Shown one piece after another: positions 24,588-53,906 of a stretch of DNA of 64,000 nucleotides. A program made the position numbers and the translations under genes. Where the stretch lies: assembly GCA_050953005.1 (NCBI GenBank), contig JBMNLV010000013.1:29465-93464 (forward strand). The letters run 5' to 3'. This stretch comes from Christensenellales bacterium. GTDB taxonomy: Bacteria; Bacillota; Clostridia; Christensenellales; Aristaeellaceae. The notes under the pieces were generated by a model. The model was not told the DNA's origin. It did not search any database and saw nothing but the letters and a program-made list of their open reading frames with translations. Numbering within the stretch: position 1 is the first letter of the stretch; each line of letters starts with the position of its first letter.

Positions 24588-25534
24588 GAAAAATGAGCAA
24601 AAGAAGAACTTGTAATTTTGACATTGGGAAGCATTTATCTGATTTTTCTCTGGCTATATTATTAGTTTCACTTGTGATTGTATTTTCCATATGGACACCA
24701 AATTTTCTAGTGAGAGTTAACATTACTAATATCTTGGTACAGAATGTTCATATCGCAGTTTGTATGACTGGTGTCCTGATTATCATGATCAGCGGTGGAT
24801 GTGACCTGTCAATCGGATATCAGATTTCCTGTGTAGCAGTTCTGATGACTAAGCTGATTACAGAATATCAGGTAAATTCGGTTATCGCTATCATTCTTGG
24901 TGTTTTATTGGGAGCTCTTCTGGGGCTGTTTAACGGATTCATAGCTCAGAAGCTTAAGAGTCACCCTATGATGGTAACATTAGGTACAATGTCTATCTTT
25001 CAAGGCGTTAGTTATTTGATGAGCAATTCCAAGACTTACTTTAACCTGCCAACAACCTATAAAGTTCTTGGACAGTATCGTATTGGTGGATGGCTTCCAT
25101 TGAATGTGATTGTTATGGTTTTGATTCTAGTAGTGGTTTGGGTTCTGCTAGAAAAAACCTGTTTTGGACGTAACATTTATTCAGTGGGGGACAATCCAGA
25201 AGCCTCTCGTTTGGCTGGCTTGAATGTAAACAAAATCAAAATAATGGCTTTTGTCATTGCTGGAGTATTGGTTGGTATTTCTGCTGTTCTATTGAGTTCC
25301 CGTACAGGCTCTGCAGACTCAACCACCGGTCCTGGACTCGAAATCACCGGTATCACAGCATGCGTTCTAGGAGGTGTTGCACTTAAGGGTGGTGAAGGAA
25401 AACTCTGGCGTTGTATCTTTGCTGTATATGTTCTCGGTGTGCTTTCCAATGGTATGCAGTTAGTGGGCTTGGGAGTGTACCCTCAGTACATTGCAAAGGG
25501 TTGTAATTATGCTGACATCCATCTATCTCTCTAA
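24584..25534 (+). CDS. ribose-type ABC transporter permease (BPD_transp_2 family)
   Basis: 316 aa, multi-TM, RbsC-like (GGCDLSIGY, GRNIYSVGDNPEASRLAGLNV). The C-terminus may be frameshifted at the tt run at 25501-25502. The +1 frame reads ...KGVIMLTSIYLSNRKKKTA* ending at 25556. Confidence 0.85.
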   Translation: MRKMSKRRTCNFDIGKHLSDFSLAILLVSLVIVFSIWTPNFLVRVNITNILVQNVHIAVCMTGVLIIMISGGCDLSIGYQISCVAVLMTKLITEYQVNSVIAIILGVLLGALLGLFNGFIAQKLKSHPMMVTLGTMSIFQGVSYLMSNSKTYFNLPTTYKVLGQYRIGGWLPLNVIVMVLILVVVWVLLEKTCFGRNIYSVGDNPEASRLAGLNVNKIKIMAFVIAGVLVGISAVLLSSRTGSADSTTGPGLEITGITACVLGGVALKGGEGKLWRCIFAVYVLGVLSNGMQLVGLGVYPQYIAKGCNYADIHLSL

Positions 25535-25592
25535 TCGGAAAAAGAAGACTGCGTAATTTGCAGCTTCAAAATAATTAAGGAGGTATCTTAAA

Positions 25593-26668
25593 ATGAAACT
25601 TGCTAAGAAAGCTCTCTCTATCCTGGTGGCTGGTGCGATGATTCTCTCGATGTTGGTAGGTACTCTTGTTGTAGCTTACGCGGAAAGTCCCCAAAAAGCG
25701 TATAAAACAGGATTTGTGATTTATAGTACCGGGAATGAATTCTTCCAAGGTATGTATGACGCATTTGTTGAAACCTTTAGGAGCCATGGTTGGGAAGCAA
25801 CCGCTCAAAGTGGACAAGGCGATATAGCAAAGCAAATTGAGCAGATAGAGAATTACACTGCCATGGGTGTTGATGTACTTTTGGTATGGCCTACAGAGGG
25901 TGTCGCAGTTGATGACGCAATAAAAAATGCACAAAACAATGGTATAAAAGTTATGGAAATGGTTAATTGCGGAGAGAATTGGGATGTGATGCTGACCTCG
26001 GATATGAAAGAAATGCAGGAATACTGTAACAAAATGGCTTGCCTTTGGGTTGACAAAATGTTTCCGGATGCGGCCGATAGCACAGTAAATTGTGTTGTGA
26101 TTACTATGTACGCTAACCAGACCAATAAGGATCAGGCGGAAGTTGCGCTCCGCATTGGTGAATATGATTCCCGTATCAAAGTGCTGGGGGAATATACACT
26201 TACCCAAGAAACCATTGATGCTGGTGTTAAGGCTGCAGAAGACATTTGTAATCTGTATCCCGATTTCAACTTAATCATTTCTCCTCAGGGCACAGCTATG
26301 CTAGGTGTAAATCAGTATTTGACATCTATGGCTTCTCCTATCACAGATTATAGTAAAATGGCTATCTTTACTTGCAATGGTTCAGGGGAACAGATGTATC
26401 AAGCGATTAAAGCTTCCAAGAATAATGAAACACCCATGCGTGGTGCTCTGGTGACTAGTGGTGTGAAGCGATCTATGAAGATATCTACATGGTTGCCAGC
26501 GGGATTATGGATGGTTCCATTGAAACCCCTTTCATCTTTTATCCGCCTTACCTGGTCGTAGACGAGAACACTGCAAATGAAATGTTAGAAACAGACGATG
26601 TGCAGTCTCTTACTACTGATGATATTGACGTAGCATTTCCGTTCAGTCTATATAGCACAAAGGAATAA
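25593..26668 (+). pseudogene. periplasmic-binding-protein-type sugar ABC substrate-binding protein, 1-nt frameshift as sequenced
   Basis: Signal peptide MKLAKKALSILVAGAMILSMLVG and an RbsB/PBP1-like body. After ...LVTSGV (about 26465, gg run) the native-looking continuation EAIYEDIYMVASGIMDGSIETPFIFYPPYLVVDENTANEML...LYSTKE* is in the +1 frame and ends at 26668. Confidence 0.8.
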
Positions 26669-26689: not shown

Positions 26690-27792
26690 ATGAGCAAACT
26701 GAAAATTGGCATCATTGGGTGCGGTGCCATTGCAAACCAAAAACATTTTCCAGCTATGAAAGATAATCAAGATCTTTGCGAAATCGTGGCTTTCTGTGAC
26801 ATCATTAAAGATCGTGCTAAAAGGGCAGCCATAGAATTCGGAACAAGCAATGCAAGGGTTTACGAGGATTATCGTGACTTGTTGGCTGACTCTGAGGCGG
26901 AAATAATTCATGTGCTTACACCCAATGTTTCACACTGTCTTATAACCGTTGATGCATTCGAGGCCGGTAAAAACGTCTACTGTGAAAAACCTATGGCTCA
27001 TAATTCCACAGATGCAAAAGCTATGATTAATGCTTGGAAACAAAGCGGAAAACAGTTCACTATGGATACCAGAATCGCTTCCGACCAGAAATTCAGAACT
27101 TAAAGAAAGCATGTGAGAAAGGAGACCTAGGCGATATTTACTATGGAAAAGCACATGCTGTTCGGCGGAGAGCTGTCCCTACATGGGGAGTGTTTCCGGA
27201 TAAATCCAAGCAGGGTGGAGGCCCATTGATTGACATCGGCACTCATGCGTTAGATATTACTCTCTGGTGCATGGATAATTACGACGTCGAAAGCGTTACA
27301 GGTAGTGTTTTCTATAAGCTGGGCAATCTGCCTCAAGCTACAGAAGGAAATGTTTTTGGTCCTTGGGATCCAGAAAAGTATGAGGTCGAGGATTCCGCAA
27401 TGGGTTTCATCAAGATGAAAAATGGCGCTGCAATTAATCTGGAAGCAGCTTGGGCAATTAATATGACGGAATCTAAAGAAGCCAGTACCACGTTATGCGG
27501 AACACTTGCCGGCGCAGAGATTCTCTCAGGAATGAGTTATCTGGAAGATCAGCTAATTTATAATCGTGGACGTAACGGTCAACTGATGGAGGAAAGAATT
27601 ACATCAGGTGGTAAAGTTGCCTACTTTGAAGGCGGTAGCAGAGATCCAGGAGTGATAGATAATCGTCAATGGCTCGAGGCAATACTCAATGATACAGAGC
27701 CATTGGTGAAGCCTGAGGAAGCACTCATAGTGACCTGTATTTTGGATGCTATCTATCAATCTGCTGAAAAGCACCAGGAAATTAGATTCTAA
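26690..27792 (+). pseudogene. Gfo/Idh/MocA family oxidoreductase, 1-nt frameshift as sequenced
   Basis: ORFs 26690..27103 (MSKLKIGIIGCGAIANQKHFPAM...VYCEKPMA) and 27034..27792 (GYQNRFRPEIQ...GGGPLIDIGTHALD...) are the two halves. Adding one G at 27064-27065 (atgg-a) gives ...GKQFTMGYQNRF.... Confidence 0.85.
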
Positions 27793-27915: not shown

Positions 27916-28345
27916 GTAAGCGTCAAACGCTTTTCTTTACTCTACATTCTTCTGGCGCGTTAATCAGCAACATTCCCGCTATCTGCTCCTCTACGCTCAG
28001 GTCCAGTTTTGGCGCCTCATGCATCCATCAGCCAAGCCAGGTAACGATAGGGATCCAGGCCGTTTTCTTTGCGGTTTCAACCATACTATAAATGACGGCA
28101 CTGGCTTCCGCGCCCTTGGGCACATTGGCGAACAGAAAATTCTTCCGGCCCATCACAAAGGGTTTGATGCTGCGTTCAGCCCGATTGTTGCTGATTTCAA
28201 GCCTGCTATCCTGCAGATAGTTGAGCAAAATGGGCTCAGCCAGATCCTTCCGCTTTCGCAGACGTTCTTCCGGCGGCAAGCTGCTGATCTCATTTTCAAT
28301 GGCAAACAGGCTGTTGCAATACTGCTTCCCGCGAAGAACTTAAAG
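27916..28345 (-). pseudogene. IS66-family transposase remnant (C-terminal part plus terminal inverted repeat)
   Basis: Hand translation: RGKQYCNSLFAIENEISSLPPEERLRKRK...LQDSRLEISNNRAERSIKPFVMGRKNFLFANVPKGAEASAVIYSMVETAK, then with frameshifts NGLDPYRYLAWLMDA and HEAPKLDLSVEEQIAGMLLINAPEECR. The element ends with ...cgcttac (plus strand gtaagcg at 27916), the GTAAGC terminus typical of IS66 IRs. Confidence 0.75.
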
Positions 28346-28464: not shown

Positions 28465-28908
28465 ATGATACATCTTCTCGCGTTCGTGGCGCTGGGTACG
28501 GTTGTCTGCGACCTTGCGCTCAAACTGGTTCCCCTGGGCGAACAGCGTGTGCTGCTGCCCGGTGTGCTGGGGCTGGCTTACGCGCAAAACCGCGGCGTGG
28601 CCTTTGGCCTGCTGAACCAAAGCCCCCTTGTCAGTCTGCTGGTCTCCCTGGCGCTGGTGCTGCTGGGCGGCGCCTGCGCGCGCGGGCTGCGCCTTACGCG
28701 CCCGGAGGCGCTGGGCGCGGGCCTGATGCTGGGCGGCGCGCTGGGCAACCTGACGGACCGCGCGCTGCATGGCGCGGTCAGCGATTACCTGCAGCTGCTG
28801 CTGTTCCGTTTTCCGCTGTTCAACCTGGCCGACGCCTGCCTGACCCTGGGGGCCCTGCTGCTGGCGCTTTGCGCGCTGCTGCCGGGCGGGAAGGCGCGCC
28901 ATGTCTGA
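28465..28908 (+). CDS. lspA: lipoprotein signal peptidase II
   Basis: 147 aa, four TM segments, NRGVAFG and FNLAD motifs characteristic of LspA. 8-nt overlap with rluD. Confidence 0.85.
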   Translation: MIHLLAFVALGTVVCDLALKLVPLGEQRVLLPGVLGLAYAQNRGVAFGLLNQSPLVSLLVSLALVLLGGACARGLRLTRPEALGAGLMLGGALGNLTDRALHGAVSDYLQLLLFRFPLFNLADACLTLGALLLALCALLPGGKARHV

Positions 28909-29812
28909 GATTCGCGCGAGGGGCAGCGGAGAACGCCTGGATGTGCTGTTGGCCGCGCAGGGCCTCAGCCGCTCCCAGGCGGCCCGGCTGATCCGGGAGG
29001 GCCGGGCGCGCGTCAAGGGGATTGTGGTGACAAAGCCATCTTTTATCCCAAATATCGGGGATGAAGTGGTGTTGAACCGGCCGGAACCCCTGAAATCCGA
29101 GGCGCAGGCGGAGGACATTCCTATCTGCGTGCTGTATGAGGATGAGGCGCTGGCGGTTGTTGACAAGCCGGCCGGGCTGGTGGTGCATCCCGCGGCGGGC
29201 AAGCCTGACGGCACCCTGGTCAACGCGCTGCTGTTCCACCTTGACAGCCTGTCGGGCATCGGCGGGCAAAAACGCCCGGGCATCGTTCACAGGCTGGACA
29301 AGGACACCTCGGGGCTGATGCTCATCGCCAAGAACGACCGCGCCCACCTGGCGCTGTCCCGCGCGCTGGCGCAGCGGGAGATCAAAAAGCACTACCTGGC
29401 GGTGGTCGCCGGGCAGATGAAGGAAGCTGCGGGGTTCTATGACGGCCCCATCGCCAGAAGCCCCCGGGACCGCAAGAAAATGGCTGTGGTGCCCGGCGGG
29501 CGGGACGCGCTGACCCATTGGCGGCTGGTGCGCCAGGATGAAAAAAGCGCGCTGGTGCTCATTCGCTTGGTCACCGGGCGCACCCACCAGATCCGCGTGC
29601 ATTTTTCAAACGCCCACCACCCGGTGATGGGCGACCCGATCTATGGCCACAAGGGCCTGCCGGCCGCGCCGCGGCTGATGCTGCACGCCTGCGCCCTGGG
29701 CTTCACTCATCCCGTGACCCAGGAGCCCATGGTTTTCACCGCCATGCCGGAGGCTGCCTTTGGCGTGACGGATGAGGATACACTAAAAGGGCTCTGTGAA
29801 AGCCCTTTATAA
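28901..29812 (+). CDS. rluD: RluA-family 23S rRNA pseudouridine synthase (RluD-like, with S4 domain)
   Basis: 303 aa. N-terminal S4-like RLDVLLA...SRSQAARLI, catalytic HRLDKDTSGLMLIAKN, and GRTHQIRVH motif. Confidence 0.85.
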   Translation: MSEIRARGSGERLDVLLAAQGLSRSQAARLIREGRARVKGIVVTKPSFIPNIGDEVVLNRPEPLKSEAQAEDIPICVLYEDEALAVVDKPAGLVVHPAAGKPDGTLVNALLFHLDSLSGIGGQKRPGIVHRLDKDTSGLMLIAKNDRAHLALSRALAQREIKKHYLAVVAGQMKEAAGFYDGPIARSPRDRKKMAVVPGGRDALTHWRLVRQDEKSALVLIRLVTGRTHQIRVHFSNAHHPVMGDPIYGHKGLPAAPRLMLHACALGFTHPVTQEPMVFTAMPEAAFGVTDEDTLKGLCESPL

Positions 29813-29843: not shown

Positions 29844-30638
29844 TCAACCCAGCATCATGCGGTCGCTGACCAGCTCCTCGCCTGAACGCAGGGAGAACAT
29901 CTGCACGAGCTGTTCGACAGTCAGGCTTTTTTTCTCCTTGCCTTTCACATCCAGAATAATCCTGCCCTGGCTCATCATGATCAGGCGGTTGCCGTGCTGA
30001 ATGGCATCGCGCATGTTGTGGGTGACCATGAGGCAGGTCAGGTTCATGCTGGAGATAAAGTGGTCGGACAGCTCCAGCACCTTGCGCGCGGTCTTGGGGT
30101 CCAGGGCCGCGGTGTGCTCGTCCAGCAGCAGCAGCTTGGGCGTCTTGAGGATGGCCATCAGCAGGGTCAGCGCCTGGCGCTGGCCGCCGGAGAGCATGCG
30201 CACCTTGGTGGACATGCGATCCTGAAGATCCAGGTCCAGCTCGGCCAGGCGCTGGTGGAACAGGACTTTATCCTGGGCGCTCACGCCCCAGGCCAACCCC
30301 CGGGGCTTGCCCCGGAGAGCGGCCATGGCCAGGTTTTCCTGGATTTCCATGTCTGCGGCGGTGCCCATGAGGGGATCCTGAAACACCCGGCCCAGGTCAG
30401 CTGCCCGGCGGTGCTCCGGCAGGTGGTCAATGCGCTGGCCGTCCAGGAAAATGCTCCCGCTGTCCTGGCGGTGCACCCCGGAAACAACATTGAGCAGGGT
30501 GGACTTGCCCGCGCCGTTTCCGCCGATGAGGGTGACAAAATCTCCCGGCAAGAGATGCAGGTTGATGTTGTCCAGGGCAAGCCGGGCGTTGATGGTGCCC
30601 GGGCTGAACGTCTTGTTCAAGCCGGTGATCTGAAGCAT
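29844..30638 (-). CDS. ABC transporter ATP-binding protein (partner of the BPD_transp_2 permease and ABC_sub_bind-type SBP)
   Basis: 264 aa. Walker A GGNGAGKST, signature LSGGQRQAL, Walker B LLLLDEHTAALD. Confidence 0.85.
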   Translation of the reverse strand: MLQITGLNKTFSPGTINARLALDNINLHLLPGDFVTLIGGNGAGKSTLLNVVSGVHRQDSGSIFLDGQRIDHLPEHRRAADLGRVFQDPLMGTAADMEIQENLAMAALRGKPRGLAWGVSAQDKVLFHQRLAELDLDLQDRMSTKVRMLSGGQRQALTLLMAILKTPKLLLLDEHTAALDPKTARKVLELSDHFISSMNLTCLMVTHNMRDAIQHGNRLIMMSQGRIILDVKGKEKKSLTVEQLVQMFSLRSGEELVSDRMMLG

Positions 30639-30640
30639 GG

Positions 30641-31537
30641 CTACTTCCCTCCCCTGGCGCTGGCGCCGTTCTTCTCCCAGATGGTTTTTAAGCGGGGCAG
30701 GGACAGGGCCAGGGCTACGGTGATGGCGGTGAAGAGCTTCAGGTCATCGGCGGGCATGCCCATGCGCAGCACAAGGGCGATGATCAGCCGGTAGGTGATG
30801 GCGCCCACGATCAGGGAGATGAGCCGCGCCAGGAAGTGCCGCTGGCCCATGATGACCTCGCCGATGATCAGAGAGGCCAGGCCAATCACAATGGCGCCGA
30901 TGCCCATTTGCACATCGGCAAAGCCCTGGTCCTGGGCGATGAGGCCCCCTGAGAGCGCCACCAGGGCGTTGGCCAGCATGAGCCCCAGGATCAGGGTGGT
31001 GTCGGTGTTCACCCCCTGGGCCCTGACCATGTGCGGGTTGTTGCCGGTGGCCCGGATAGCGCTGCCTATCTGGGTGCCGAAGAACCAATAGAGCAAAAAG
31101 GCCAGGCCCAGGGCGAGGACGCTGCTCAAAAGGATCGTGGCCAGCGATTTATTCAGGCCCAGCAGCCCGCCTACCAGGGAGAAGGCGGTTGGGATACGCA
31201 ACAGGGGCAGGTTGGCCACGCCCATGATTTTCAGGTTGACGGAATACAGGGCAATCATGGTGAGGATGCCGGAAAGCAGGGCCGGGATGCGCAGCTTGGT
31301 GTGCAGAAGGCCGGTGACCAGCCCTGCCAGCGCGCCCGCCACCAGACAGAAGAGCAGGGACAGGTAGGGGTTCAGGCCCCGGCCCATCAGGCTGGCGCAG
31401 ACCGCGGCCCCCAGGGTGATGCTGCCCTCAACGGACAGGTCTGCCACATCCAAGACCCGGTAGGAGATATAGACTCCCATGGTCATAACGGACCAGATCA
31501 GGCCAAGGGACAGGGCGTTCAGCAGTATATATTCCAT
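30641..31537 (-). CDS. ABC transporter permease (BPD_transp_2 family)
   Basis: 298 aa multi-TM ORF between the SBP and ATPase genes. The long plus-strand ORF 31031..32593 is its antisense shadow. Confidence 0.85.
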   Translation of the reverse strand: MEYILLNALSLGLIWSVMTMGVYISYRVLDVADLSVEGSITLGAAVCASLMGRGLNPYLSLLFCLVAGALAGLVTGLLHTKLRIPALLSGILTMIALYSVNLKIMGVANLPLLRIPTAFSLVGGLLGLNKSLATILLSSVLALGLAFLLYWFFGTQIGSAIRATGNNPHMVRAQGVNTDTTLILGLMLANALVALSGGLIAQDQGFADVQMGIGAIVIGLASLIIGEVIMGQRHFLARLISLIVGAITYRLIIALVLRMGMPADDLKLFTAITVALALSLPRLKTIWEKNGASARGGK

Positions 31538-31594
31538 GGTCTTCCTTTACTGCCCCGCCCCAAGCGGGGCGGGGCGATGGTTAATGGGGATGCG

Positions 31595-32569
31595 TCAGAA
31601 GGACTGGGCAAATGGCAGCAGGTCCTCCGGAATCTCAAGGCCAATGGCCTCGCAGTAGCTTTTGTTGATCAGGTACTCAAACTCCGTCTGGCTCTGGATG
31701 GGCATGGCGGATACCTTGGCCTTGCCCTGGAGCAGCTGAGCCGCCATGTGGCCGGTCTGTTCCCCCAGGCGGAAGTAATTGATGCCCAGGGTGAAGGTGC
31801 CGCCGGAGCGCACCTGGCCCTCCTCGCCGCAGGCTACCGGGATCCCCTTGTCCTGGGCGGCCTGGGCCACCAGGGGCATGGAGGAGGCAATGATGTTGTC
31901 CGTAGGCACATAGATGGCGTCTACCTGATCAAGGAGACTTGTGACAGCCTGCTGGACATCATTGGAGGTAGTAACGGTCAATTCTACCACATTGAGGGCA
32001 AGGTCTTCCAGAGCTTCCTTGGCAAGCCTGGCCTGAATCTGGGAATTGATCTCGCTGCCGGTGTAGAGCAGGCCCACCCGCCGGGCATCCGGCACCAGGC
32101 GGTGCAGCATGGCGATCTGTTCCGCTACCGGGTTCATGTCGGTGGTGCCCGATACGTTGAGCCCCGGGGACTCATTGCTGTTGATGAGCTTGGCCGCCAC
32201 ATAGTCTGTCACAGCGGTGCCCAGGATGGGGATGCTGTCCGTCCTGCCGGCCAGGGCCAGGACGGCCGGGGTGGCGATGCCCAGGGCCAGGTCCACCTTG
32301 TCGGCCACGAACATGTCCGCGATGCTGGCGCACAGATCCTGGCTGGCCTGGCCGTTTTGATAGGAGATGCGGATGTTTTTGCTGTCCTCATAGCCCTCTT
32401 CGGCCAAAGCTTTCAAAAAGCCTTCCCGGGCCGCGTCCAGGGCGGGGTGCTGCACGAACTGCAGGATGCCCACGGACAGCTGCTTTTTGGGCTGGAACAC
32501 CAGATAGCCGACCACCGCCAGCGCGAGAACCAGCACCAGGATTATCAGTCCCTTTGTTTTCTTTTTCAT
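31595..32569 (-). CDS. ABC transporter substrate-binding protein (ABC_sub_bind / TrpX-HisX-like family), paralogue 1
   Basis: 324 aa with TM/signal anchor MKKKTKGLIILVLVLALAVVGYL. VGILQFVQHPALDAAREGF... pattern. Preceded by a T-box leader. Confidence 0.85.
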   Translation of the reverse strand: MKKKTKGLIILVLVLALAVVGYLVFQPKKQLSVGILQFVQHPALDAAREGFLKALAEEGYEDSKNIRISYQNGQASQDLCASIADMFVADKVDLALGIATPAVLALAGRTDSIPILGTAVTDYVAAKLINSNESPGLNVSGTTDMNPVAEQIAMLHRLVPDARRVGLLYTGSEINSQIQARLAKEALEDLALNVVELTVTTSNDVQQAVTSLLDQVDAIYVPTDNIIASSMPLVAQAAQDKGIPVACGEEGQVRSGGTFTLGINYFRLGEQTGHMAAQLLQGKAKVSAMPIQSQTEFEYLINKSYCEAIGLEIPEDLLPFAQSF

Positions 32570-32609
32570 GTTGTCTTCCTCCGTTTGCGTTAATGTCTGG
32601 CCCTTGCGG

Positions 32610-32860
32610 AAAAAAACGCCCCCTGCGCTTGCAGAGGGCGGATCTACCGCGGTACCACCTCAATTTTCTGTCAACAGACAGCTCAGCGGCAACTGACATT
32701 GCCTGCCCGGGTAACGGTGGGCTTCCGGCACAGCCTACTGTAATTCAGCCTGCGGCTCGCGGGATGTACTCGCCGTCCTGTCCCCCTGCTGCCTTGCACC
32801 ATCCGGCAGTTCTCTTGCGGGGAGCTGGGATGACTACCTGTTCCCGGTCAACACCGTTGC
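32610..32860 (-). promoter_or_regulatory. T-box riboswitch leader 1 (candidate UAC/Tyr specifier)
   Basis: Minus-strand RNA shows a GA/K-turn base (GGUGuUGACCGG ... CCGGAAGCCACC), AG bulge AGAGA and distal loop GGUGCAA. The specifier region is GAAUUACAG (rc of 32738-32746) and the T-box sequence UUGAGGUGGUACCGCGG (rc of 32647-32663). The terminator is CGCCCUCUGC-AAGC-GCAGGGGGCG plus U7 (32610-32640). Confidence 0.85.
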
Positions 32861-33019
32861 AGCAATATTAAGCTTGCATACAAAAAGCCTCAATGTCAAA
32901 TCTGGTAGAATCCAGTGCAAATCGAGAGAAAACAACTCAAAAACAAAAGCTCCGCACCGCGCAGGTTTTCTTGACCATGCCACGTTTGATGGGTATGATG
33001 TCGTTGTTTGGAGGTTTCT

Positions 33020-34036
33020 ATGAAGAAGCGATGGATTCTTTTCCTGTGCGTGCTGGCGCTGTTCAGCCTGGCAGTGTCTGCGCGTGCACAGGAATATACA
33101 GCCAGCGTCATAGGAGGCGCGCTGCATCTGCGCGCGCAGGCGGACAAGGAAGCGAAATCCCTGGGCCGCTACAGGACCGGCACCAAGGTCAGCGTGCTGG
33201 CTGACGGCGAGGTTTTCTGCCGGGTTAAAACGCCCGACGGCAAGGAAGGATACATGATGAAGGAGTTTCTGGAATTCAGCGATGGCCTGCCGCCCCGCGA
33301 GGAGCCTGACCCCGGCCCGGCGCCTGCAGCTGACCCGGTCAGGCAAAGCGCGCTCGACCGCGGCATTGATCCCTACAGGCCCATGCTGGCCCTCACCTTT
33401 GATGACGGCCCCCATCCCGATTCGCTGCTGGTTTTGGAAGCCCTGGAGGCCCATGGCGCGCGGGGCACCTTCTTCGTGCTGGGAAAGAACATCCAGGGCA
33501 ATGAGGAGATCCTCAGGCGCATTGCCCAGGGCGGCCATCAGATTGGCGCGCACTCCTGGTCCCATCCCAACCTGCGGGAGATCTCCCAGTCCGCCGTGAA
33601 ATCGCAAATGACGCGCACCATGGACAAAATAATTGAAATTACCGGCCAGCAGGTCAGCATGATGCGGCCGCCCTACGGCGCTTTAAACCGCCTGTCCCGC
33701 AATACGATTGCCAAATTGGGCCTGCCGGTGATCCTGTGGTCTGTAGATTCCCTGGACTGGAAGACCCGCAGCGCCAGCAGAACCATCGACACCATCCTCT
33801 CCCAGGCCAAAAACGGGGCGATCATCCTCTGTCACGATGTCTGGGACAGCACCGGCCGGGCGATGCAGACCGTGGTGCCTGCGCTGATCGAAAAGGGATA
33901 CCAGCTGGTCACGGTGGCAGAGATGATGTCCTTTCGCAATGAGCCTTTGAAACCGGGCTGGGAATACAGCTATTTGGACATCGCGAAAATTGCGCCCGGG
34001 CTGACGCCCGCGCCGCAGGACACGCCGGCGCCCTGA
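33020..34036 (+). CDS. secreted polysaccharide deacetylase (NodB domain) with N-terminal SH3-like domain
   Basis: Signal peptide MKKRWILFLCVLALFSLAVSARA (GGAGG RBS upstream). SH3b-like GALHLRAQADKEAKSLGRYRTGTKVSVL. NodB motifs LTFDDGP and HSWSHP. Confidence 0.85.
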   Translation: MKKRWILFLCVLALFSLAVSARAQEYTASVIGGALHLRAQADKEAKSLGRYRTGTKVSVLADGEVFCRVKTPDGKEGYMMKEFLEFSDGLPPREEPDPGPAPAADPVRQSALDRGIDPYRPMLALTFDDGPHPDSLLVLEALEAHGARGTFFVLGKNIQGNEEILRRIAQGGHQIGAHSWSHPNLREISQSAVKSQMTRTMDKIIEITGQQVSMMRPPYGALNRLSRNTIAKLGLPVILWSVDSLDWKTRSASRTIDTILSQAKNGAIILCHDVWDSTGRAMQTVVPALIEKGYQLVTVAEMMSFRNEPLKPGWEYSYLDIAKIAPGLTPAPQDTPAP

Positions 34037-34066
34037 ACGGAGCGGTGAACGGGGAAAGCAATACTG

Positions 34067-34220
34067 ATTCCAATCTTCATTGCATCGTCGCGCCGGATCT
34101 TTGATCGCCCTGCTGCGTCAGTCAACCTCAACGCAGCTAAAGCTACGCCGTCGGTTTCCTTCCTTGCGGGACAATTAAATCCCTCGCCGCTTTGGATGCA
34201 ATAAAGCTTTACATCGGTAT
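34067..34220 (+). repeat. interspersed repeat family A, copy 3 (uninterrupted)
   Basis: attccaatcttcattgcatcgtcgcgccggatctttgatcgccc...ccctcgccgctttggatgcaataaagctttacatcggtat. Its 3' end matches the sequence obtained by joining the two flanks of the IS at 6331/7945. Confidence 0.65.
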
Positions 34221-34223
34221 AAG

Positions 34224-34259
34224 ACAGGCTGCCGCGCTCGCTTTGGCGCGGCAGCCTGT
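34224..34259. terminator. strong GC hairpin between convergent genes (terminator-like)
   Basis: acaggctgccgcgc-tcgctttg-gcgcggcagcctgt: a perfect 14-bp stem with no adjacent U run on either strand. Confidence 0.45.
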
Positions 34260-34282
34260 TAGTGATTCGGATTTTTATGCTA

Positions 34283-35278
34283 TTATTTGGGCACAGGGGT
34301 GGCCGGCATCTCCGCCTCGTAGGGCTTGAGATCCTCTGGAATCACGATGCCCATGGCGTCATTGGCGGTCTTGTTGATGTAATAATTATACTGGCTCTGG
34401 CTCTGGATGGGCATGGTGGAGACTTTCGCCCCGTCCCGCAGCACGGCCACGGCCATCTTGCCGGTCTGGTAGCCCAGCATATCATAGTCGATAGCCAGGG
34501 TGAAATTGCCGCCTGCCATGACCATGTTGCCGTCTCCCGCCACTACGGGCACCTTTTTCTTCAGGGCCGCTTCATACACCAGGGGCATGGCGGAGGCCAG
34601 GGTGTTGTCCGTGGGGATGTAAATCGCGTCCACATCCATCACCAGGGAGCTGACGGTCTGCTGCACCTCGTTGGAGCTGTTGACAGTGACCTCCTTCCAG
34701 GCAAGGCCCAGGCGCTGGATTTCCTCCTTGGCCAGGCGCGCCTGCATCTGGGAGTTGACCTCGCTGGCGGTATAAATCAGGCCGATGGTCCGGACCCCGG
34801 GCACCAGGCGGACGATCATGCCTACCTGGGCTTCCACCGGGTTCATGTCCGTGGTGCCGGAGACATTGTAGCCCGGCGCTTCGTTGGACTTGGCCAGCTT
34901 GGCCTCCACATAGTCGGTGATGGCCGTGCCCAGGATGGGGATGGTGTCGGTCTTGGCGGCGACCGCCTGGGCGGAGGGCGTGGCGATGGCCAGGATCAGA
35001 TCCACCCCTTGCCCCACAAAGTAGGAGGCGATGCTGGAGAGGGTATCCTGGCTGCCTTGGGCGTTGCGGTAATCCACCGTGATGTTTTTGCCATCCTTAT
35101 AGCCATCCTCAGCCAGAGCCCTCAAAAAGCCTTCCCTTGCCGCGTCAAGCGCCTTATGGTTGACAATTTGAACGATGCCCACGACCACCTTCTTCTCCTT
35201 TTTTGTCAGGGACACCACGGCGACTATGATAGCCGCTACCAGCACCAGGGCGATCAACACCTTTGTGATGCGGTTCAT
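34283..35278 (-). CDS. ABC transporter substrate-binding protein (ABC_sub_bind family), orphan paralogue 2
   Basis: Start chosen at MNRITKVLIALVLVAAIIVAVV (ATG 35278, GGAGGA RBS). The track ORF start at 35347 would lie inside the T-box terminator. Clearly paralogous to 31595..32569 along the full length, with no permease or ATPase gene next to it. Confidence 0.85.
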   Translation of the reverse strand: MNRITKVLIALVLVAAIIVAVVSLTKKEKKVVVGIVQIVNHKALDAAREGFLRALAEDGYKDGKNITVDYRNAQGSQDTLSSIASYFVGQGVDLILAIATPSAQAVAAKTDTIPILGTAITDYVEAKLAKSNEAPGYNVSGTTDMNPVEAQVGMIVRLVPGVRTIGLIYTASEVNSQMQARLAKEEIQRLGLAWKEVTVNSSNEVQQTVSSLVMDVDAIYIPTDNTLASAMPLVYEAALKKKVPVVAGDGNMVMAGGNFTLAIDYDMLGYQTGKMAVAVLRDGAKVSTMPIQSQSQYNYYINKTANDAMGIVIPEDLKPYEAEMPATPVPK

Positions 35279-35294
35279 ACCTGTTCCTCCTTCT

Positions 35295-35552
35295 ATAAAA
35301 TGAAACGCCCTCTGCATTCGCAGAGGGCGGATATACCGCGGTACCACCTCAATTTCCTGTCATTCGACAGCTCAGGGCAACCAACATTGCCTTCCCTGTT
35401 AACGGCAGGGGCCCGGCACAGCCTACTTCATGTTCAGCCTGCGGCTCGCGGGAGGAACTCACCTGTCCTGATCCCTGCGCCCCTCTCACCATTGGGCGCT
35501 CGCTTTGAGGGATGTCAGACCGCTACACGTTCCCGGTCATCACCATTGCAGG
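35295..35552 (-). promoter_or_regulatory. T-box riboswitch leader 2 (specifier differs from leader 1; candidate AUG/Met)
   Basis: Same scaffold as leader 1: GGUGaUGACCGGG, AG bulge AAGCGA, distal loop GGUGAGA, specifier region GAACAUGAAG (rc of 35426-35435), and T-box UUGAGGUGGUACCGCGG (rc of 35336-35352). The terminator is CGCCCUCUGC-GAAU-GCAGAGGGCG (35306-35329). Confidence 0.85.
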
Positions 35553-35773
35553 CATCATAGGGCACTCGCGCGCGGGCTTCAATGTGGAAAATGGTTGAAA
35601 TATAAAGCGAACAACAGAAAAACAAGAAAAAAACATTCGGACCCCGGATGAAAGATCAGCCATAAAAGCTTAAAAGGAAAATCAAGAACACTCTCTTAAA
35701 GTTTCTCCCATTCAGATCATCCTTTCAGGCGGTTTCGCCCGATGTGTCCCCTTCTTTGCTGTGGATGCCACCA

Positions 35774-36718
35774 TCAGCGGCTGCGCAGGATGGTGCCGGC
35801 CCGGCCCTGCGCGCCCGCCCAGGCTTGCTCCAGGCTGGTGATGACAGCCACGCGACCCGCGCCGCCCTCCACAAAGCGCAGCGCGGCTTCTACCTTGGGC
35901 CCCATGGAGCCGGCGGCAAAATGGCCTTCCTCGAGCCAGGCCCGCATGTCCGCGGCGGAAACCTCGCCCAGCGCCTTTTGCTGCGGCTTGCCGTAATGCA
36001 GGAAGGCCTGCTCAACCTCGGTCAGGATCAGCAGGGTGCCGGCCTGCAGGCCTTCGGCCAGGCGCCAGGCAGCCAGGTCCTTGTCAATCACCGCCGCCAC
36101 GCCCGCCAGGCCATCATCCCGGCGTACCACCGGGATGCCGCCGCCCCCCGCGGCGATGGGCACAAAGCCGGCGGCCAGCAGGGCCTTGACCTGCGCCAAT
36201 TCCACGATCTGAAGCGGCAGCGGGGAGGCTACCACGCGCCGCCAGCCCCGGCCCGAATCCTCGCGGAACACATAGCCCTTCTCCGCCATGATGGCCTCCG
36301 CCTGCTCACAGGTATAAAAGGGGCCGATAGGCTTGGTAGGGTGGTCAAAGGCAGGGTCGCTCCCGTCCACAAGCACCTGGCTGACCAGCGTGACCGGCGC
36401 GCCGGGAATGCCCAGCGCCTGCATCCGCTGGCCCAGGGCCTGCTGGATATGATAGCCGATCAGGCCTTGGCTCATCGCGCCGCACACATCAAAGGGCATG
36501 GCCGGGGTGATGTGCCGGGCCGTCTCGTTTTGCAGCACGATGCGTCCCACCTGCGGCCCGTTGCCGTGCACGATGGCCAGGCGCTGCCCGGTTTTGAGGA
36601 TGCGGGCCAGCTGCGCCGCGGTCCGCCGGACAACAGCCAGCTGGCTGTCCGCGTCATAGGGCCCCTGACCCCGCTGCAGGGCGTTGCCCCCCAGGGCGAC
36701 GACCAGGAGATCATTCAT
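35774..36718 (-). CDS. arcC: carbamate kinase
   Basis: MNDLLVVALGGNALQRG... N-terminus, HGNGPQVG motif, GGGGIPV motif. The ATG overlaps the orr stop (ATGAATGA). The track start at 36742 is an alternative. Confidence 0.8.
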   Translation of the reverse strand: MNDLLVVALGGNALQRGQGPYDADSQLAVVRRTAAQLARILKTGQRLAIVHGNGPQVGRIVLQNETARHITPAMPFDVCGAMSQGLIGYHIQQALGQRMQALGIPGAPVTLVSQVLVDGSDPAFDHPTKPIGPFYTCEQAEAIMAEKGYVFREDSGRGWRRVVASPLPLQIVELAQVKALLAAGFVPIAAGGGGIPVVRRDDGLAGVAAVIDKDLAAWRLAEGLQAGTLLILTEVEQAFLHYGKPQQKALGEVSAADMRAWLEEGHFAAGSMGPKVEAALRFVEGGAGRVAVITSLEQAWAGAQGRAGTILRSR

Positions 36719-37805
36719 GGACAAGGTTTCCTTCCTTATCAAGACAGGATTTCGCCACGTAGGCGCTGGTGTAGGCCCTCAGCAGCGCGCTGTATGTTGG
36801 ATAAAAGCCCAGCACATCCCCGACCCTGTACTCCGGGGCCTGTGTCAGGTCTACCAGCAGGTGGTCGGAGCTGCTGCCCAGCACCCTGATCCGCCCATCC
36901 GCCGGGGTCAGGCCGTCCTGGTCGGTGTCCTGCCGGCCGATGGCCAGGATGCCCCGCGCCATGGGCCCCTGGTCCTCAAAAGACACCGTTTCCCCAAAGG
37001 CATTGGGGCCTGCCTTGCCCACCGGCCTGGAGGGCTTTTCATACACCTCCACCAGGCGGGCAAACAGGGTAAACGCGCGCTGGCTCAGCTGCGCCAGGGG
37101 CTTGCCCACCGAGGTGTCCATGCCCAGCAGCAGCCCTTCGCCCACCCTGAGGTGGTTGATGCCCCCGGGCAGCCTGCCATTCAGCAGCAGGTGCAGGCTG
37201 GAGGAATTGCCGCCGGATACAAGGGGCAGCGGGATGCCGAAATGGTTGCGGATCCGCCGTGCCCATTCCAGCAGGATGCCCATGTTGTTTTCGTCCGGCA
37301 GGATGCCCCCGAAGCAGGTCAGGTTGGCGCCAAGACCTGCCAGGGTCAGCCCCTCCTGGGACAGCGCCAGGGCGGCCGTGTTCAGGATCCGGTTCCCATC
37401 CTGATAGAAGATGCCTTCACGCAGATCCCCCAGGTCGATCATCAGGATGACCTGATGGCGCCTGCCCAGTTTGCGGGCGGCCTTGCCCAGGGCGGCGAGC
37501 GCCTGCGGCGTGGACTGCAGGCTGTATTCACAGCTGCTGACGACTGCCTCTGCCTCCTGCGGGTCGGCGATGCGCAGCAGCATCCTGGGCTTGTCCAGGG
37601 GCAGCCTGTTCAGGTTTGGGATCCGGGCGTCCGCCAGCATATCCACCCCGGCGTCCAGCAGGGCGCGGGCGATGCAGGGCTCTGCGCAAACGCCCTTGGT
37701 GACTGCGGCCAGCTGCACGCCCTGCCTGCGGCAGGCGTCCAGAATGACCCGGGCGTTTTCCTGCAAAATCCCGGTGTCGGCTTGGATCAGGGGCATGTTC
37801 ATCAA
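36711..37805 (-). CDS. orr: ornithine racemase (alanine-racemase-fold PLP enzyme)
   Basis: 364 aa. AAVTKGVCAEPCIARALLDAGVDMLADARIPNL pattern (PLP lysine in VTKG). Position at the end of the ornithine aminomutase cluster. Confidence 0.7.
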   Translation of the reverse strand: MMNMPLIQADTGILQENARVILDACRRQGVQLAAVTKGVCAEPCIARALLDAGVDMLADARIPNLNRLPLDKPRMLLRIADPQEAEAVVSSCEYSLQSTPQALAALGKAARKLGRRHQVILMIDLGDLREGIFYQDGNRILNTAALALSQEGLTLAGLGANLTCFGGILPDENNMGILLEWARRIRNHFGIPLPLVSGGNSSSLHLLLNGRLPGGINHLRVGEGLLLGMDTSVGKPLAQLSQRAFTLFARLVEVYEKPSRPVGKAGPNAFGETVSFEDQGPMARGILAIGRQDTDQDGLTPADGRIRVLGSSSDHLLVDLTQAPEYRVGDVLGFYPTYSALLRAYTSAYVAKSCLDKEGNLVHE

Positions 37806-39169
37806 AGCGTTTCCTCCCTGAGGCTGTCCAGCATCAGATGAAGCGCGGCCTGCGGATGCTCGCGGCTCAGGGTGCCCAGCGCTGCCATAAGGTAATGCCT
37901 GTCGCTGAGCACCCGCAGCGCGCCCGGCTTGGGGTAGAGCATCTTCCCGGCTGTGTTCAGATCGCGCAGCGCGACCAGGATGCCCAGCCGCCCGTCCAGC
38001 CTGGTCAGCGCGCCGCCGGTGGCGATGAGCGTCCCGGCTTCGGTCAGGTCCTTGCCCTGGGCGTAGCGCCTGCGCCCCTCAGGCAGGAAGACCTCGCGCA
38101 GGCTGCCCGCGTGGCGGCGGACGGCCAGGCTGCCCGCTTCCCGGGCCAGGCGGGCGGCCAGGGCTTGCTGGCTGTCCGTTTGCGGGATGGGCGGCCAGTC
38201 CGACAGCAGCGGGGCCGGGTCAACGCCCAGCTCGCGCTCAAGAACGCCATGCCCAATCAAACTCGCCAGCGGCCCGGCGTTGAGGTAGGTGCCCAGGTCG
38301 CCCTCCACGGTGCGCTTGAAAAAGGGCTCCGGCTGGGTCTGGATGCGCGCGATTTCCTCGCTCCCCTGGGTTGCGGAATGCACATCGGTGGTCGCGCCGC
38401 CGATGTCCACCGCCAGCAAATCCCCCAGCGCCGGGTGCAGCACGCGCACTGCCTCCATCACCGCGCCGGGTGTGGGCAGGATGGTGCCGCCCACCATCTC
38501 GCGGATGCGCGCCATGCCGGGCGCCTTGACGATATGCGTTTCAAACAGGTCCTGGATGGCCCGGCGCGCCGGCTCGATGTTGAGCTCGTCCAGGCGGGGA
38601 TAAACATTTTCCACCACGCAAAGCGGCTGGCCTTCCGCCTCAAAGATGCCGCGCGCCTCATCGGCCGCCGCGCAGTTGCCCGCGTACAGCACCGGGATGG
38701 ACAGCCGCAATTCGGCGATCCGGCGCGCGTTGAACACCGCGGTCTCCCGGTCGCCAAAGTCGGTGCCGCCCGCCAGCAGGATCAGGTTGGGGGAGAGCTG
38801 CCTCAGGGCTTTCAGGTCATAGGGCCCCAGTTTGCCCGCCGTGACCTGGCGCACCACCGCGCCCGCGCCCAGGGCTGCCAGCTGCGCCGCGCGCGCGGTC
38901 ATGTCATACACCAGGCCGTGCACGCTCATCGTAAGCCCCCCGGCTGCGCTGGAGGCCGCGAGCATCCTGTCCCAGGACAGCTCGCCCGCGCCAAGGTTTT
39001 GCTTTAAATTGTCCACCGCGGCCTGCAGCCCCAGGGTGACATCGCCCAGGTGGGCCGTGGTGGGCGCCATGCCCTGGCCCGCGAACACCGGCGTCCCGGC
39101 CAGCCCGGCAAAGCCGCTGACCAGGGTGGTGGTGGAGCCGATCTCGGCGACAAGGGCGTCAAGCTTCAT
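37802..39169 (-). CDS. GlmL/MutL-like protein (putative aminomutase reactivating factor)
   Basis: 455 aa. MKLDALVAEIGSTTTLVSGF... and DIGGATTDVHS (ASKHA-fold phosphate motifs) as in glutamate mutase MutL/GlmL. Sits between oraE and orr, as in described ornithine clusters. Confidence 0.7.
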   Translation of the reverse strand: MKLDALVAEIGSTTTLVSGFAGLAGTPVFAGQGMAPTTAHLGDVTLGLQAAVDNLKQNLGAGELSWDRMLAASSAAGGLTMSVHGLVYDMTARAAQLAALGAGAVVRQVTAGKLGPYDLKALRQLSPNLILLAGGTDFGDRETAVFNARRIAELRLSIPVLYAGNCAAADEARGIFEAEGQPLCVVENVYPRLDELNIEPARRAIQDLFETHIVKAPGMARIREMVGGTILPTPGAVMEAVRVLHPALGDLLAVDIGGATTDVHSATQGSEEIARIQTQPEPFFKRTVEGDLGTYLNAGPLASLIGHGVLERELGVDPAPLLSDWPPIPQTDSQQALAARLAREAGSLAVRRHAGSLREVFLPEGRRRYAQGKDLTEAGTLIATGGALTRLDGRLGILVALRDLNTAGKMLYPKPGALRVLSDRHYLMAALGTLSREHPQAALHLMLDSLREETL

Positions 39170-53902: not shown

Positions 53903-53906
53903 TAGT

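What the first reader, a model, noticed from the sequence alone, without database searches (positions are those of the whole stretch)
29844..35552. One ABC importer with two paralogous binding proteins, each with its own T-box leader
The operon SBP1-permease-ATPase (32569 down to 29844) is preceded by a T-box leader (32610-32860). A second, clearly paralogous SBP (34283-35278) lies 1.7 kb away on the same strand, separated by an opposite-strand deacetylase gene. It has its own T-box leader (35295-35552) but no permease or ATPase. The simplest reading is an orphan SBP that docks on the same membrane complex. That would let one transporter import two different amino acids, each controlled by charging of a different tRNA. 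This SBP family includes the predicted T-box-regulated TrpXYZ/HisXYZ-type transporters from comparative genomics. The substrates here are unknown.
Basis: partly seen in the sequence, partly recalled or inferred. Interest (0 to 1): 0.65.

Follow-up and report, generated by a model that had tools for sequence, protein, structure and literature searches.

The report
Tyrosine/phenylalanine importer with two T-box-controlled binding proteins
One amino-acid uptake pump is served by two sister binding proteins, each switched on by its own tRNA-sensing RNA leader (one reads tyrosine tRNA, the other most likely phenylalanine tRNA); this is a tidy combination of two well-known principles, not a new kind of system.

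Summary
SBP1-permease-ATPase (32569 down to 29844, minus strand) and a lone paralogue, SBP2 (35278-34283, 58% identical), each sit behind a full-length T-box leader with its own promoter and intrinsic terminator.

- **Rfam scores:** leader 1 passes the Rfam cut-off (94.6 bits against 93). Leader 2 falls just below it (82.2 bits, E 2.8e-18), but it is 80% identical to leader 1.
- **Specifier codons:** they are most likely UAC (Tyr) for SBP1 and UUC (Phe) for SBP2, not Met. Both stay fixed across all relatives found.
- **Protein family:** both proteins belong to the TrpX/CD0873 aromatic-amino-acid binding family. Every UAC-linked protein keeps the glutamate that bonds the tyrosine hydroxyl in CD0873. 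UUC-linked proteins mostly do not.
- **Conservation:** the split layout, with a cell-wall deacetylase gene in between, is conserved in eight related Christensenellales-like genomes.
- **Sister lineages:** in sister metagenomic lineages the same two T-box/SBP units lie in tandem before a single permease-ATPase pair, and there the Phe unit is next to the pump. This is the best evidence that both proteins feed one pump.

Sharing of the pump is still inferred, because the whole genome was not available. The closest precedents are TrpXYZ with a Trp T-box and argT-hisJQMP. I rate this a modest new variant of a known kind.

The parts
29785..29808 (-). Terminator hairpin after the ATPase gene, shared with the convergent rluD gene
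   Evidence: Sequence AAAGGGCT-TTCACAG-AGCCCTTTT read. rluD (28901-29812, +) ends here.
29844..30638 (-). ABC ATPase (264 aa), the only one of this system
   Evidence: PF00005 at 3.8e-28. 93% identical in L002 and 73-76% in L003, L005-L007 and L009.
30641..31537 (-). Single permease (298 aa), presumably a homodimer
   Evidence: PF02653 BPD_transp_2 at 1.7e-25. It is the only close copy in the window.
31552..31575 (-). GC-rich stem-loop between SBP1 and the permease, with no T run
   Evidence: 10-bp hairpin; the 57-nt spacer folds at -26.4 kcal/mol. A hairpin of different sequence occupies the same place in L002, L003, L005, L006, L007, L009 and L070. Its role, giving more binding protein than pump, is inferred.
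31595..32569 (-). SBP1 (324 aa), predicted tyrosine-binding protein
   Evidence: PF04392 at 1.1e-79. It has Glu at the CD0873 Glu-263 position and Tyr at the Tyr-279 position. The backbone-binding residues T, A, T, D and N are conserved.
32610..32860 (-). T-box leader 1, including the terminator (32617-32640) and T run
   Evidence: RF00230 at 94.6 bits, model positions 1-219 of 219. Terminator. Specifier UAC at 32768-32766. T-box bulge UGGU at 32657-32654.
32865..32893 (-). Promoter-like site for leader 1 (TTGAGG, 17 nt, TAATAT)
   Evidence: Read. It aligns with the leader 2 promoter. A -10-like box lies at the same place in orthologues.
33020..34036 (+). Peptidoglycan/polysaccharide deacetylase with an SH3 domain. 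It separates the two units and is not part of the transporter
   Evidence: PF01522 and PF08239. PgdA-like by NCBIfam, below the cut-off. Present between the two SBP genes in L002-L009 and absent from the tandem lineages.
34224..34259 (-). Terminator-like hairpin after SBP2, which makes SBP2 monocistronic
   Evidence: 14-bp hairpin, -32 kcal/mol, with equivalents in L002, L003, L005 and L009.
34283..35278 (-). SBP2 (331 aa), lone binding protein, predicted phenylalanine-binding
   Evidence: PF04392 at 3.7e-79. 58% identical to SBP1. It has Asp at the Glu-263 position and Tyr at the Tyr-279 position. No adjacent permease or ATPase.
35296..35549 (-). T-box leader 2, including the terminator (35306-35329)
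   Evidence: RF00230 at 82.2 bits, E 2.8e-18, model positions 1-219 of 219. Terminator. Specifier UUC at 35457-35455, followed by C. T-box bulge UGGU at 35346-35343.
35554..35582 (-). Promoter-like site for leader 2 (TTGAAG, 17 nt, TATGAT)

Best explanation
This is an aromatic-amino-acid ABC importer of the TrpXYZ/CD0873 type. It has one permease gene, one ATPase gene and binding proteins of family PF04392. Two paralogous binding proteins serve it, and each is under its own transcription-terminating T-box.

- **Leader 1** carries the specifier UAC. When uncharged tRNA-Tyr accumulates, it pairs with UAC and with the UGGU bulge and stabilises the antiterminator. Transcription then reads through into SBP1, the permease and the ATPase. 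SBP1 is the tyrosine binder.
- **Leader 2** carries the specifier UUC and does the same with uncharged tRNA-Phe. It controls only SBP2, a monocistronic unit with its own promoter and terminator.
- **SBP2** is inferred to deliver phenylalanine to the same permease/ATPase complex. That complex would be present at the basal read-through level or co-induced.
- **The GC hairpin** between SBP1 and the permease probably keeps binding protein in excess over the pump.
- **Origin:** the pair arose by duplication of a leader-plus-SBP unit, followed by a one-base change in the specifier.

Shown here: the genes, both T-boxes, the fixed UAC/UUC difference, family membership, conserved synteny, and tandem arrangements in relatives. 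Inferred: the reading frame of the specifier, the ligands, and sharing of the pump.
For: **T-boxes.** Searches give full-length matches. Terminators that overlap the antiterminator 3' strand appear. The terminator stem shows a compensatory U-A to A-U change in 5 of 16 leaders.

**Specifier.**
- All 9 SBP1-type leaders read GAG-UAC-A-U. All 9 SBP2-type leaders read (G/A)AG-UUC-C-U.
- A metagenome scan with the four positions left free returned only TACA (12), TTCC (15) and TTCA (9).
- The consensus fold closes the lower stem with an A-U pair in 16 of 16 leaders. Its register is fixed by a G-C to A-U double change next to it.
- That leaves GAG + codon + one base, the published geometry in which the S-turn purines directly precede the codon and a purine follows it (PMC11404447).
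- The bulge UGGU calls for discriminator A73, as in tRNA-Tyr and tRNA-Phe (my own knowledge; pairing rule).

**Ligands.**
- The nearest structures are CD0873 with Tyr, SP1069 with Trp and VC1101 with Phe.
- CD0873 Glu-263 bonds the Tyr hydroxyl, and Tyr-279 excludes Trp (PMC6816091).
- Glu is present in 15 of 15 UAC-linked proteins, against 4 of 23 UUC-linked ones (14 Asp, 5 Ala). Tyr-279 is present in all.

**Shared pump.**
- Synteny is conserved in L002-L009.
- Tandem Tyr-unit/Phe-unit/permease/ATPase loci occur in L070, L056/L073 and L072/L076, and every leader there scores 100-110 bits.
- Two or three tandem SBP genes before one permease and ATPase are common in this family.
- No other partner lies in the window.
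Against: - **Genome coverage:** only 64 kb of the genome was seen, so a second permease/ATPase pair elsewhere cannot be excluded.
- **Regulatory asymmetry:** in this lineage the pump genes sit only behind the Tyr T-box. Phe starvation alone would raise SBP2 but not the pump.
- **Rfam score:** leader 2 is below Rfam's gathering score.
- **Base after UUC:** it is C in all 15 TTCC leaders, not the usual purine.
- **Alternative frame:** Rfam's own alignment leaves the final U unpaired. That would make the default frame ACA/UCC, meaning Thr and Ser. That frame would also place both fixed differences inside the codon.
- **Pocket signature:** SBP2-type proteins carry Asp, Ala or Glu at the Glu-263 position, so the pocket does not clearly say Phe.
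- **No direct data:** there are no binding, uptake or expression measurements.
Confidence: 0.7

Rival explanations
1. The specifiers are read one base further 3', as ACA (Thr) in leader 1 and UCC (Ser) in leader 2. The system would then import threonine and serine.
For: - Rfam's alignment leaves the U after ACA/UCC unpaired.
- The TBDB rule takes positions 2-4 from the end of the bulge.
- Both fixed differences between the leaders would then fall inside the codon.
- UCC and UCA, the TTCA class, are both Ser codons.
Against: - The A-U pair that closes the loop is present in 16 of 16 leaders, next to a covarying pair.
- In this frame no leader class has the purine expected after the codon, whereas UAC-A and UUC-A both do.
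- ACA would lack the third-position C that T-box specifiers usually have (my own knowledge).
- UGGU would pair with tRNA-Ser G73 only by wobble.
- The proteins are close relatives of binders of aromatic amino acids. The Tyr-hydroxyl Glu is strictly kept in the first class.
Confidence: 0.08
2. SBP2 does not use the neighbouring pump. It either serves a dedicated permease/ATPase elsewhere in the genome or has a non-transport role such as adhesin or sensor partner.
For: - The rest of the genome was not seen.
- The pump genes are not under the Phe T-box here.
- CD0873 also acts as an adhesin, and C. difficile carries two neighbouring ABC transport systems of this family.
Against: - SBP2 stays within 2 kb of the operon in eight genomes and never has its own permease.
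- In sister lineages the UUC-linked SBP is the gene directly in front of the permease and ATPase.
- A T-box in front of a binding protein makes sense only if the protein raises supply of that amino acid.
Confidence: 0.15
3. Both binding proteins take the same or broadly overlapping aromatic substrates. The second T-box only adds a second regulatory input, so uptake rises when either tRNA-Tyr or tRNA-Phe is uncharged. No second transport specificity is involved.
For: - The residue at the Glu-263 position in UUC-linked proteins is Asp, Ala or even Glu.
- Both classes keep Tyr-279 and all backbone-binding residues.
- In the NJ tree of all UAC- and UUC-linked SBPs, those of the tandem lineages are interleaved.
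Against: - The window-lineage SBP1 and SBP2 (window and L002-L009) form reciprocally monophyletic clades. They show fixed differences at several positions near the conserved ligand-binding motifs, including 52, 54, 56 and 235 in CD0873 numbering.
- Glu is invariant only in the UAC class.
Confidence: 0.15

Closest known systems
TrpXYZ tryptophan ABC importer with a Trp T-box (Streptococcus suis, S. pneumoniae SP1069; PMC9382623)
   Same: - The same three-gene transporter family: a PF04392 binding protein, one permease and one ATPase.
- A transcriptional T-box in the leader.
- The binding protein is the first gene.
   Different: - The specifiers here are UAC and UUC, not UGG.
- The Trp-determining Gln (Gln-284 in SP1069, Gln-273 in S. 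suis TrpX) is Tyr here.
- The NCBIfam TrpX score is below the equivalog cut-off.
- There are two binding proteins with two leaders instead of one.
CD0873 tyrosine-binding lipoprotein of Clostridioides difficile (PDB 6HNI; PMC6816091)
   Same: - It is the best structural relative (E 3.5e-69).
- SBP1 shares its Glu-263/Tyr-279 signature.
   Different: - C. difficile has two neighbouring ABC transport systems of this family rather than one pump with an extra binding protein.
- The window proteins have no lipobox cysteine.
- No T-box is reported for CD0873 in the papers read.
argT-hisJQMP and artJ-artPIQM of E. coli and Salmonella (PMC6640053)
   Same: - Two paralogous binding proteins (HisJ and ArgT, 70% identical) dock on one membrane complex.
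- The extra one is a separately transcribed, differently regulated gene beside the operon.
   Different: - Different ABC family, and regulation by protein factors (ArgR, NtrC/sigma-54) rather than by two T-boxes.
- Sharing is demonstrated there and only inferred here.
HisXYZ histidine importers under a His T-box or HisR (PMC9413887)
   Same: - A predicted amino-acid ABC importer found by comparative genomics, under a T-box in several Firmicutes.
- It illustrates how leaders are exchanged on transporter operons.
   Different: - Histidine specificity and a single leader per operon.
- I recall, but did not verify, that its binding protein belongs to the same Pfam family.
T-box duplication with a change of specifier (Vitreschak et al. 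2008, as summarised in TBDB, PMC7778990)
   Same: Duplicated leaders that differ in the specifier are a described mode of T-box evolution.
   Different: - Here the duplicated unit is leader plus binding protein, and the two copies converge on one pump.
- The original paper could not be read, so I cannot say whether this exact case was listed.

Membership tests
T-box leader (Rfam RF00230) | Covariance-model score at or above the gathering score of 93 bits | tested here: inconclusive
   Leader 1 scores 94.6 bits and meets it. Leader 2 scores 82.2 bits and does not, although E is 2.8e-18 and the whole model is matched. Orthologues of leader 2 score 76.9-92.9 bits, and sister-lineage Phe leaders score 100-101 bits.
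T-box leader (Rfam RF00230) | Stem I with a specifier loop (S-turn purines, codon), AG bulge and distal loop | tested here: met
   All are aligned. The 3' side of the loop reads GAG-UAC-A or GAG-UUC-C. The AG bulge is AGAGA in leader 1 and AGCGA in leader 2.
T-box leader (Rfam RF00230) | Antiterminator with a UGGNACC bulge, mutually exclusive with an intrinsic terminator | tested here: met
   GGUGGUACCGCG is exact in both leaders and in all 16 orthologues. Terminator hairpins overlap the 3' strand. A compensatory change occurs in the terminator stem.
T-box leader (Rfam RF00230) | Binding of a specific uncharged tRNA that causes read-through | not testable with these tools
   This needs in vitro transcription or reporter assays.
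TrpXYZ-type ABC importer (PF04392 binding protein + PF02653 permease + ABC ATPase) | The three component families encoded together | tested here: met
   The gene order SBP-permease-ATPase is as in the relatives.
TrpX tryptophan-binding protein (NCBIfam NF041285 equivalog) | Score at or above the curated cut-off of 390 bits, and the Trp-determining Gln (Gln-284 of SP1069) | tested here: not met
   Scores are 307.5 and 304 bits. The position is Tyr in both proteins. They are homologues, not tryptophan binders.
CD0873-like tyrosine-binding protein | Glu at position 263 (bonds the Tyr hydroxyl) and Tyr at position 279 | tested here: met
   SBP1 and all 15 distinct UAC-linked proteins have Glu and Tyr. 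SBP2 has Asp and Tyr, so it does not meet this for tyrosine.
VC1101-like phenylalanine-binding protein | A small non-bonding residue (Ala-246) at the Glu-263 position, with Tyr kept at position 279 | tested here: inconclusive
   UUC-linked proteins have 14 Asp, 5 Ala and 4 Glu at this position, and Tyr-279 in all. Window SBP2 has Asp.
Several binding proteins sharing one ABC pump (HisJ/ArgT type) | Both binding proteins require the same membrane complex for transport | not testable with these tools
   Only comparative support exists: conserved proximity and tandem SBP-SBP-permease-ATPase loci in relatives.

The most novel reading that the evidence does not exclude
The locus may be a natural case of a riboswitch specifier and a transporter pocket evolving together.

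- A one-base switch (UAC to UUC) in a duplicated leader is matched by loss of the tyrosine-hydroxyl-bonding Glu in the duplicated binding protein.
- The switch may have happened more than once, because Tyr- and Phe-linked proteins are interleaved in the tandem lineages.
- The single pump sits behind the Tyr leader in one lineage and behind the Phe leader in another.
- A conserved C directly after the specifier, where a purine is expected, marks the window-type Phe leaders.

If so, control of the binding protein alone, without control of the pump, is enough to redirect uptake.
Probability: 0.35. Interest if true: 0.5.

Novelty: new variant of a known kind. Interest (0 to 1): 0.35.

Why it matters
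- **Annotation:** it names likely substrates, Tyr and Phe, for two genes that automatic annotation would call generic or tryptophan-type binding proteins. The organisms are an uncultured gut and digester Christensenellales-like group.
- **Test system:** it offers a compact system with about 40 natural variants. It can test how a one-base specifier change and a few pocket changes retarget an uptake system. It can also test whether regulating only the binding protein is enough to redirect a shared ABC pump.
- **Limits:** it does not open a new mechanism. T-box-controlled importers of this family and shared pumps are both established.

Tried and rejected
- **Met as the second specifier:** rejected, because no AUG lies in the specifier loop.
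- **Other ABC sets in the window as partners for SBP2:** rejected. They are a CUT2 sugar system (23082-26561) and an Opp/Dpp system (52010-57853), each with its own binding protein of another family.
- **Exact-protein look-up of SBP2:** it gave only a 1.9-kb contig.
- **T-boxes on multi-SBP loci of other groups:** I looked in Negativicutes, Peptococcaceae, Streptococcus uberis and others and found none, even at relaxed thresholds. Those loci show that sharing is common, but not the dual T-box design.
- **Literature:** Vitreschak et al. 2008 could not be read. Wels et al. 2008 gave no detail on this subfamily. No paper was found on a lone binding protein with its own T-box.
- **tRNA genes:** none are in the window, so discriminator bases could not be checked in the host.
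- **Structure prediction and docking:** not run. The tools return no coordinates or ligands, and the sequence match to solved ligand-bound structures was already strong.
- **The NJ tree of all variants:** it has no support values, so I do not rest claims of repeated switching on it.

Full report
**Observation**

On the minus strand lie an ABC ATPase (29844-30638), a single BPD_transp_2 permease (30641-31537) and a PF04392 binding protein, SBP1 (31595-32569). A second PF04392 protein, SBP2 (34283-35278), lies 1.7 kb upstream. A plus-strand polysaccharide deacetylase with an SH3 domain (33008/33020-34036) sits between them. SBP1 and SBP2 are 58% identical.

Rfam's T-box model matches 32631-32860 end to end at 94.6 bits, just above the gathering score of 93. 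It also matches 35320-35549 end to end, at 82.2 bits. That is below the gathering score, with E 2.8e-18 in the local search. The two leaders are 80% identical to each other. Both end in a 10-bp GC-rich hairpin followed by a T-rich run. Each has a promoter-like site just upstream: the scan reports the one before leader 2, and the one before leader 1 was read from the sequence and its alignment to it.

SBP2 is followed by its own terminator-like hairpin (34224-34259), so it is a one-gene unit. The window holds no other permease or ATPase of this family. Its two other ABC systems are a sugar system and an oligopeptide system, each with its own binding protein. The one caveat is that leader 2 taken alone misses Rfam's curated threshold.

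**Relatives**

A genome scan with SBP2 found eight MAGs, labelled Bacillota, Clostridiales or uncultured Christensenella, with SBP2 identity of 68-91%. All eight carry SBP2, the opposite-strand deacetylase and SBP1 in the same order, and the flanking carbamate kinase, permease, ATPase and rluD genes are in the same order wherever the stored locus extends that far. All sixteen leaders contain the exact T-box sequence GGUGGUACCGCG. The eight that I scanned score 76.9-107 bits against RF00230. In a neighbour-joining tree, SBP1-type and SBP2-type proteins form two reciprocally monophyletic sister clades, with the tyrosine binder CD0873 as the next branch. The duplication therefore predates these nine genomes.

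**Specifier**

[quoted passage not shown] Every SBP2-type leader reads (G/A)AG-UUC-C-U.

The consensus fold of 16 leaders closes the lower Stem I helix with an A-U pair present in 16 of 16. A G-C to A-U double change in the neighbouring pair fixes the register. This leaves a seven-base 3' side made of GAG, three bases and one base. It matches the published geometry, in which the S-turn purines directly precede the codon and a purine follows it (PMC11404447). In that frame the codons are UAC (Tyr) and UUC (Phe).

A metagenome scan with the conserved flanks, leaving four positions free, returned 29 stretches. Only three variants appeared: TACA (12), TTCC (15) and TTCA (9). So there are leaders with UUC followed by the canonical A.

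The T-box bulge is UGGU in all leaders. By the pairing rule this calls for discriminator A73. From my own knowledge, tRNA-Tyr and tRNA-Phe have A73, while tRNA-Ser has G73 and tRNA-His has C73.

The alternative frame, ACA/UCC (Thr/Ser), is what one gets if the final U is left unpaired, as in Rfam's alignment, and the TBDB default rule is applied. That frame would place both fixed differences inside the codon. However, it gives no leader class a purine after the codon, and it does not fit the protein family. I put Tyr/Phe at about 0.85 and Thr/Ser at about 0.08.

**Proteins**

The nearest solved structures are C. difficile CD0873 with tyrosine (6HNI, E 3.5e-69), S. pneumoniae SP1069 with tryptophan (3LFT) and V. 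cholerae VC1101 with phenylalanine (3LKV).

Bradshaw et al. (PMC6816091) show two determinants. Glu-263 of CD0873 bonds the tyrosine hydroxyl and is Ala in the other two proteins. Tyr-279 blocks tryptophan and is Gln in the tryptophan binder. The residues that hold the amino and carboxyl groups (T, A, T, D and N; PMC9382623) are conserved in both window proteins and in all orthologues.

I compared 15 distinct UAC-linked proteins with the 23 scorable of 24 distinct UUC-linked proteins.

| Leader class | Residue at the Glu-263 position | Residue at the Tyr-279 position |
|---|---|---|
| UAC-linked (15) | Glu in 15 of 15 | Tyr in all |
| UUC-linked (23) | Asp 14, Ala 5, Glu 4 | Tyr in all |

Both window proteins hit NCBIfam's TrpX equivalog at 304-307 bits, below its 390-bit cut-off. 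The evidence supports SBP1 as a tyrosine binder. SBP2 is not a tryptophan binder, and I call it a phenylalanine binder mainly on the strength of its leader. These counts are not phylogenetically independent.

**One pump or two**

The window cannot settle this, but the comparative evidence favours one pump.

- SBP2-type genes never have their own permease or ATPase in the eight genomes, and they stay within about 2 kb of the operon.
- Two or three tandem binding-protein genes ahead of one permease and one ATPase are common across this family, for example in Acidaminococcus, Phascolarctobacterium, Peptococcaceae, S. uberis and spirochaetes. None of those that I scanned has a T-box.
- Sister metagenomic lineages (L070, L056/L073, L072/L076) carry promoter, Tyr T-box, SBP, promoter, Phe T-box (UUC-A), SBP, permease and ATPase on one strand, with no deacetylase. 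All leaders there score 100-110 bits. In those lineages the Phe-linked protein is the one next to the pump, the reverse of the window.
- L069 has a single Tyr-T-box SBP-permease-ATPase operon, a plausible ancestral state.

Either type of binding protein can therefore be the operon partner of the pump. This is what one expects if both use it.

One caveat remains. In the window lineage the pump genes are only behind the Tyr leader, so under phenylalanine limitation alone the pump would depend on basal read-through. The same logic applies to argT-hisJQMP and artJ-artPIQM. There, a separately regulated binding protein shares a membrane complex encoded in the neighbouring operon (PMC6640053).

A GC-rich hairpin between the SBP gene and the permease gene is conserved in position but not in sequence across orthologues. 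It probably raises the ratio of binding protein to pump. That role is an inference.

**Comparison and novelty**

- T-box control of this transporter family is established. TrpXYZ in S. suis was tested with reporter fusions and qRT-PCR (PMC9382623). HisXYZ under His T-boxes was found by comparative genomics (PMC9413887).
- T-box duplication with a change of specifier is a described mode of evolution (PMC7778990).
- Shared pumps are textbook knowledge.
- I did not find described the combination seen here: a duplicated leader-plus-binding-protein unit, two specifiers one base apart, and a single pump. I could not read Vitreschak et al. 2008 to check this.

I therefore rate it a new variant of a known kind, of moderate to low interest (0.35). 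Its main value is better annotation and a convenient natural test system.

**Confidence**

| Claim | Confidence |
|---|---|
| Both leaders are T-boxes | about 0.97 |
| Specifiers are Tyr and Phe | about 0.85 |
| The pump is shared | about 0.75 |
| The whole statement | about 0.7 |

Noticed in passing
window 35454, and the same position in L002-L009 and the metagenomic TTCC leaders: The base directly 3' of the UUC specifier is C in all 15 window-type Phe leaders. T-boxes normally have a purine there. Sister-lineage Phe leaders have A at this position.
   Followed up: partly
window 31595-32569 and 34283-35278 (N-termini): Neither binding protein has a lipobox cysteine. Both start with an uncleaved-looking hydrophobic anchor. 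Orthologues in L003-L009 have signal peptides ending in A-x-A. A signal peptidase II gene (lspA, 28465-28908) lies next to the operon.
   Followed up: partly
window 28028-28279 (-): An 83-residue remnant of an IS66-family transposase, matching only the last 45 positions of PF03050. It lies between the sugar-metabolism genes and lspA.
   Followed up: partly
window 26690-27792 (+): A Gfo/Idh/MocA oxidoreductase is split into two overlapping reading frames, with the N-terminal domain at 26690-27103 and the C-terminal domains at 27034-27792. This is a frameshift, so it is either a pseudogene or an assembly error.
   Followed up: partly
window 35774-39169 (-): Upstream of SBP2 lie a carbamate kinase, an alanine-racemase-N-fold PLP protein and a PF13941 MutL-type protein. 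Only the carbamate kinase was checked in relatives: it lies next to SBP2 in most related loci (L003-L009). This may be an amino-acid fermentation cluster.
   Followed up: no
L033 8766-8960 (Streptococcus uberis): A match to Enterococcus sRNA_2410 (57 bits, gathering score 61) lies directly upstream of a tandem pair of binding-protein genes of this family. That locus has no T-box.
   Followed up: no
L070 9478-10938: In this tandem-lineage locus the ATPase reading frame is 486 residues instead of about 264. Only the first half matches ABC_tran, and the extension has no Pfam hit.
   Followed up: partly
L081 70-2008: Here a UUC-A (Phe) leader and an SBP2-like protein occupy the position divergent from the deacetylase gene, which is the Tyr unit's place in the window. 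Only 2 kb of the 55-kb contig was held.
   Followed up: no
window 19028-21400 (+): A 790-residue protein fuses an AraC-type regulator (cupin and HTH_18 domains) to a glycoside hydrolase family 39 domain, which is an unusual combination.
   Followed up: no
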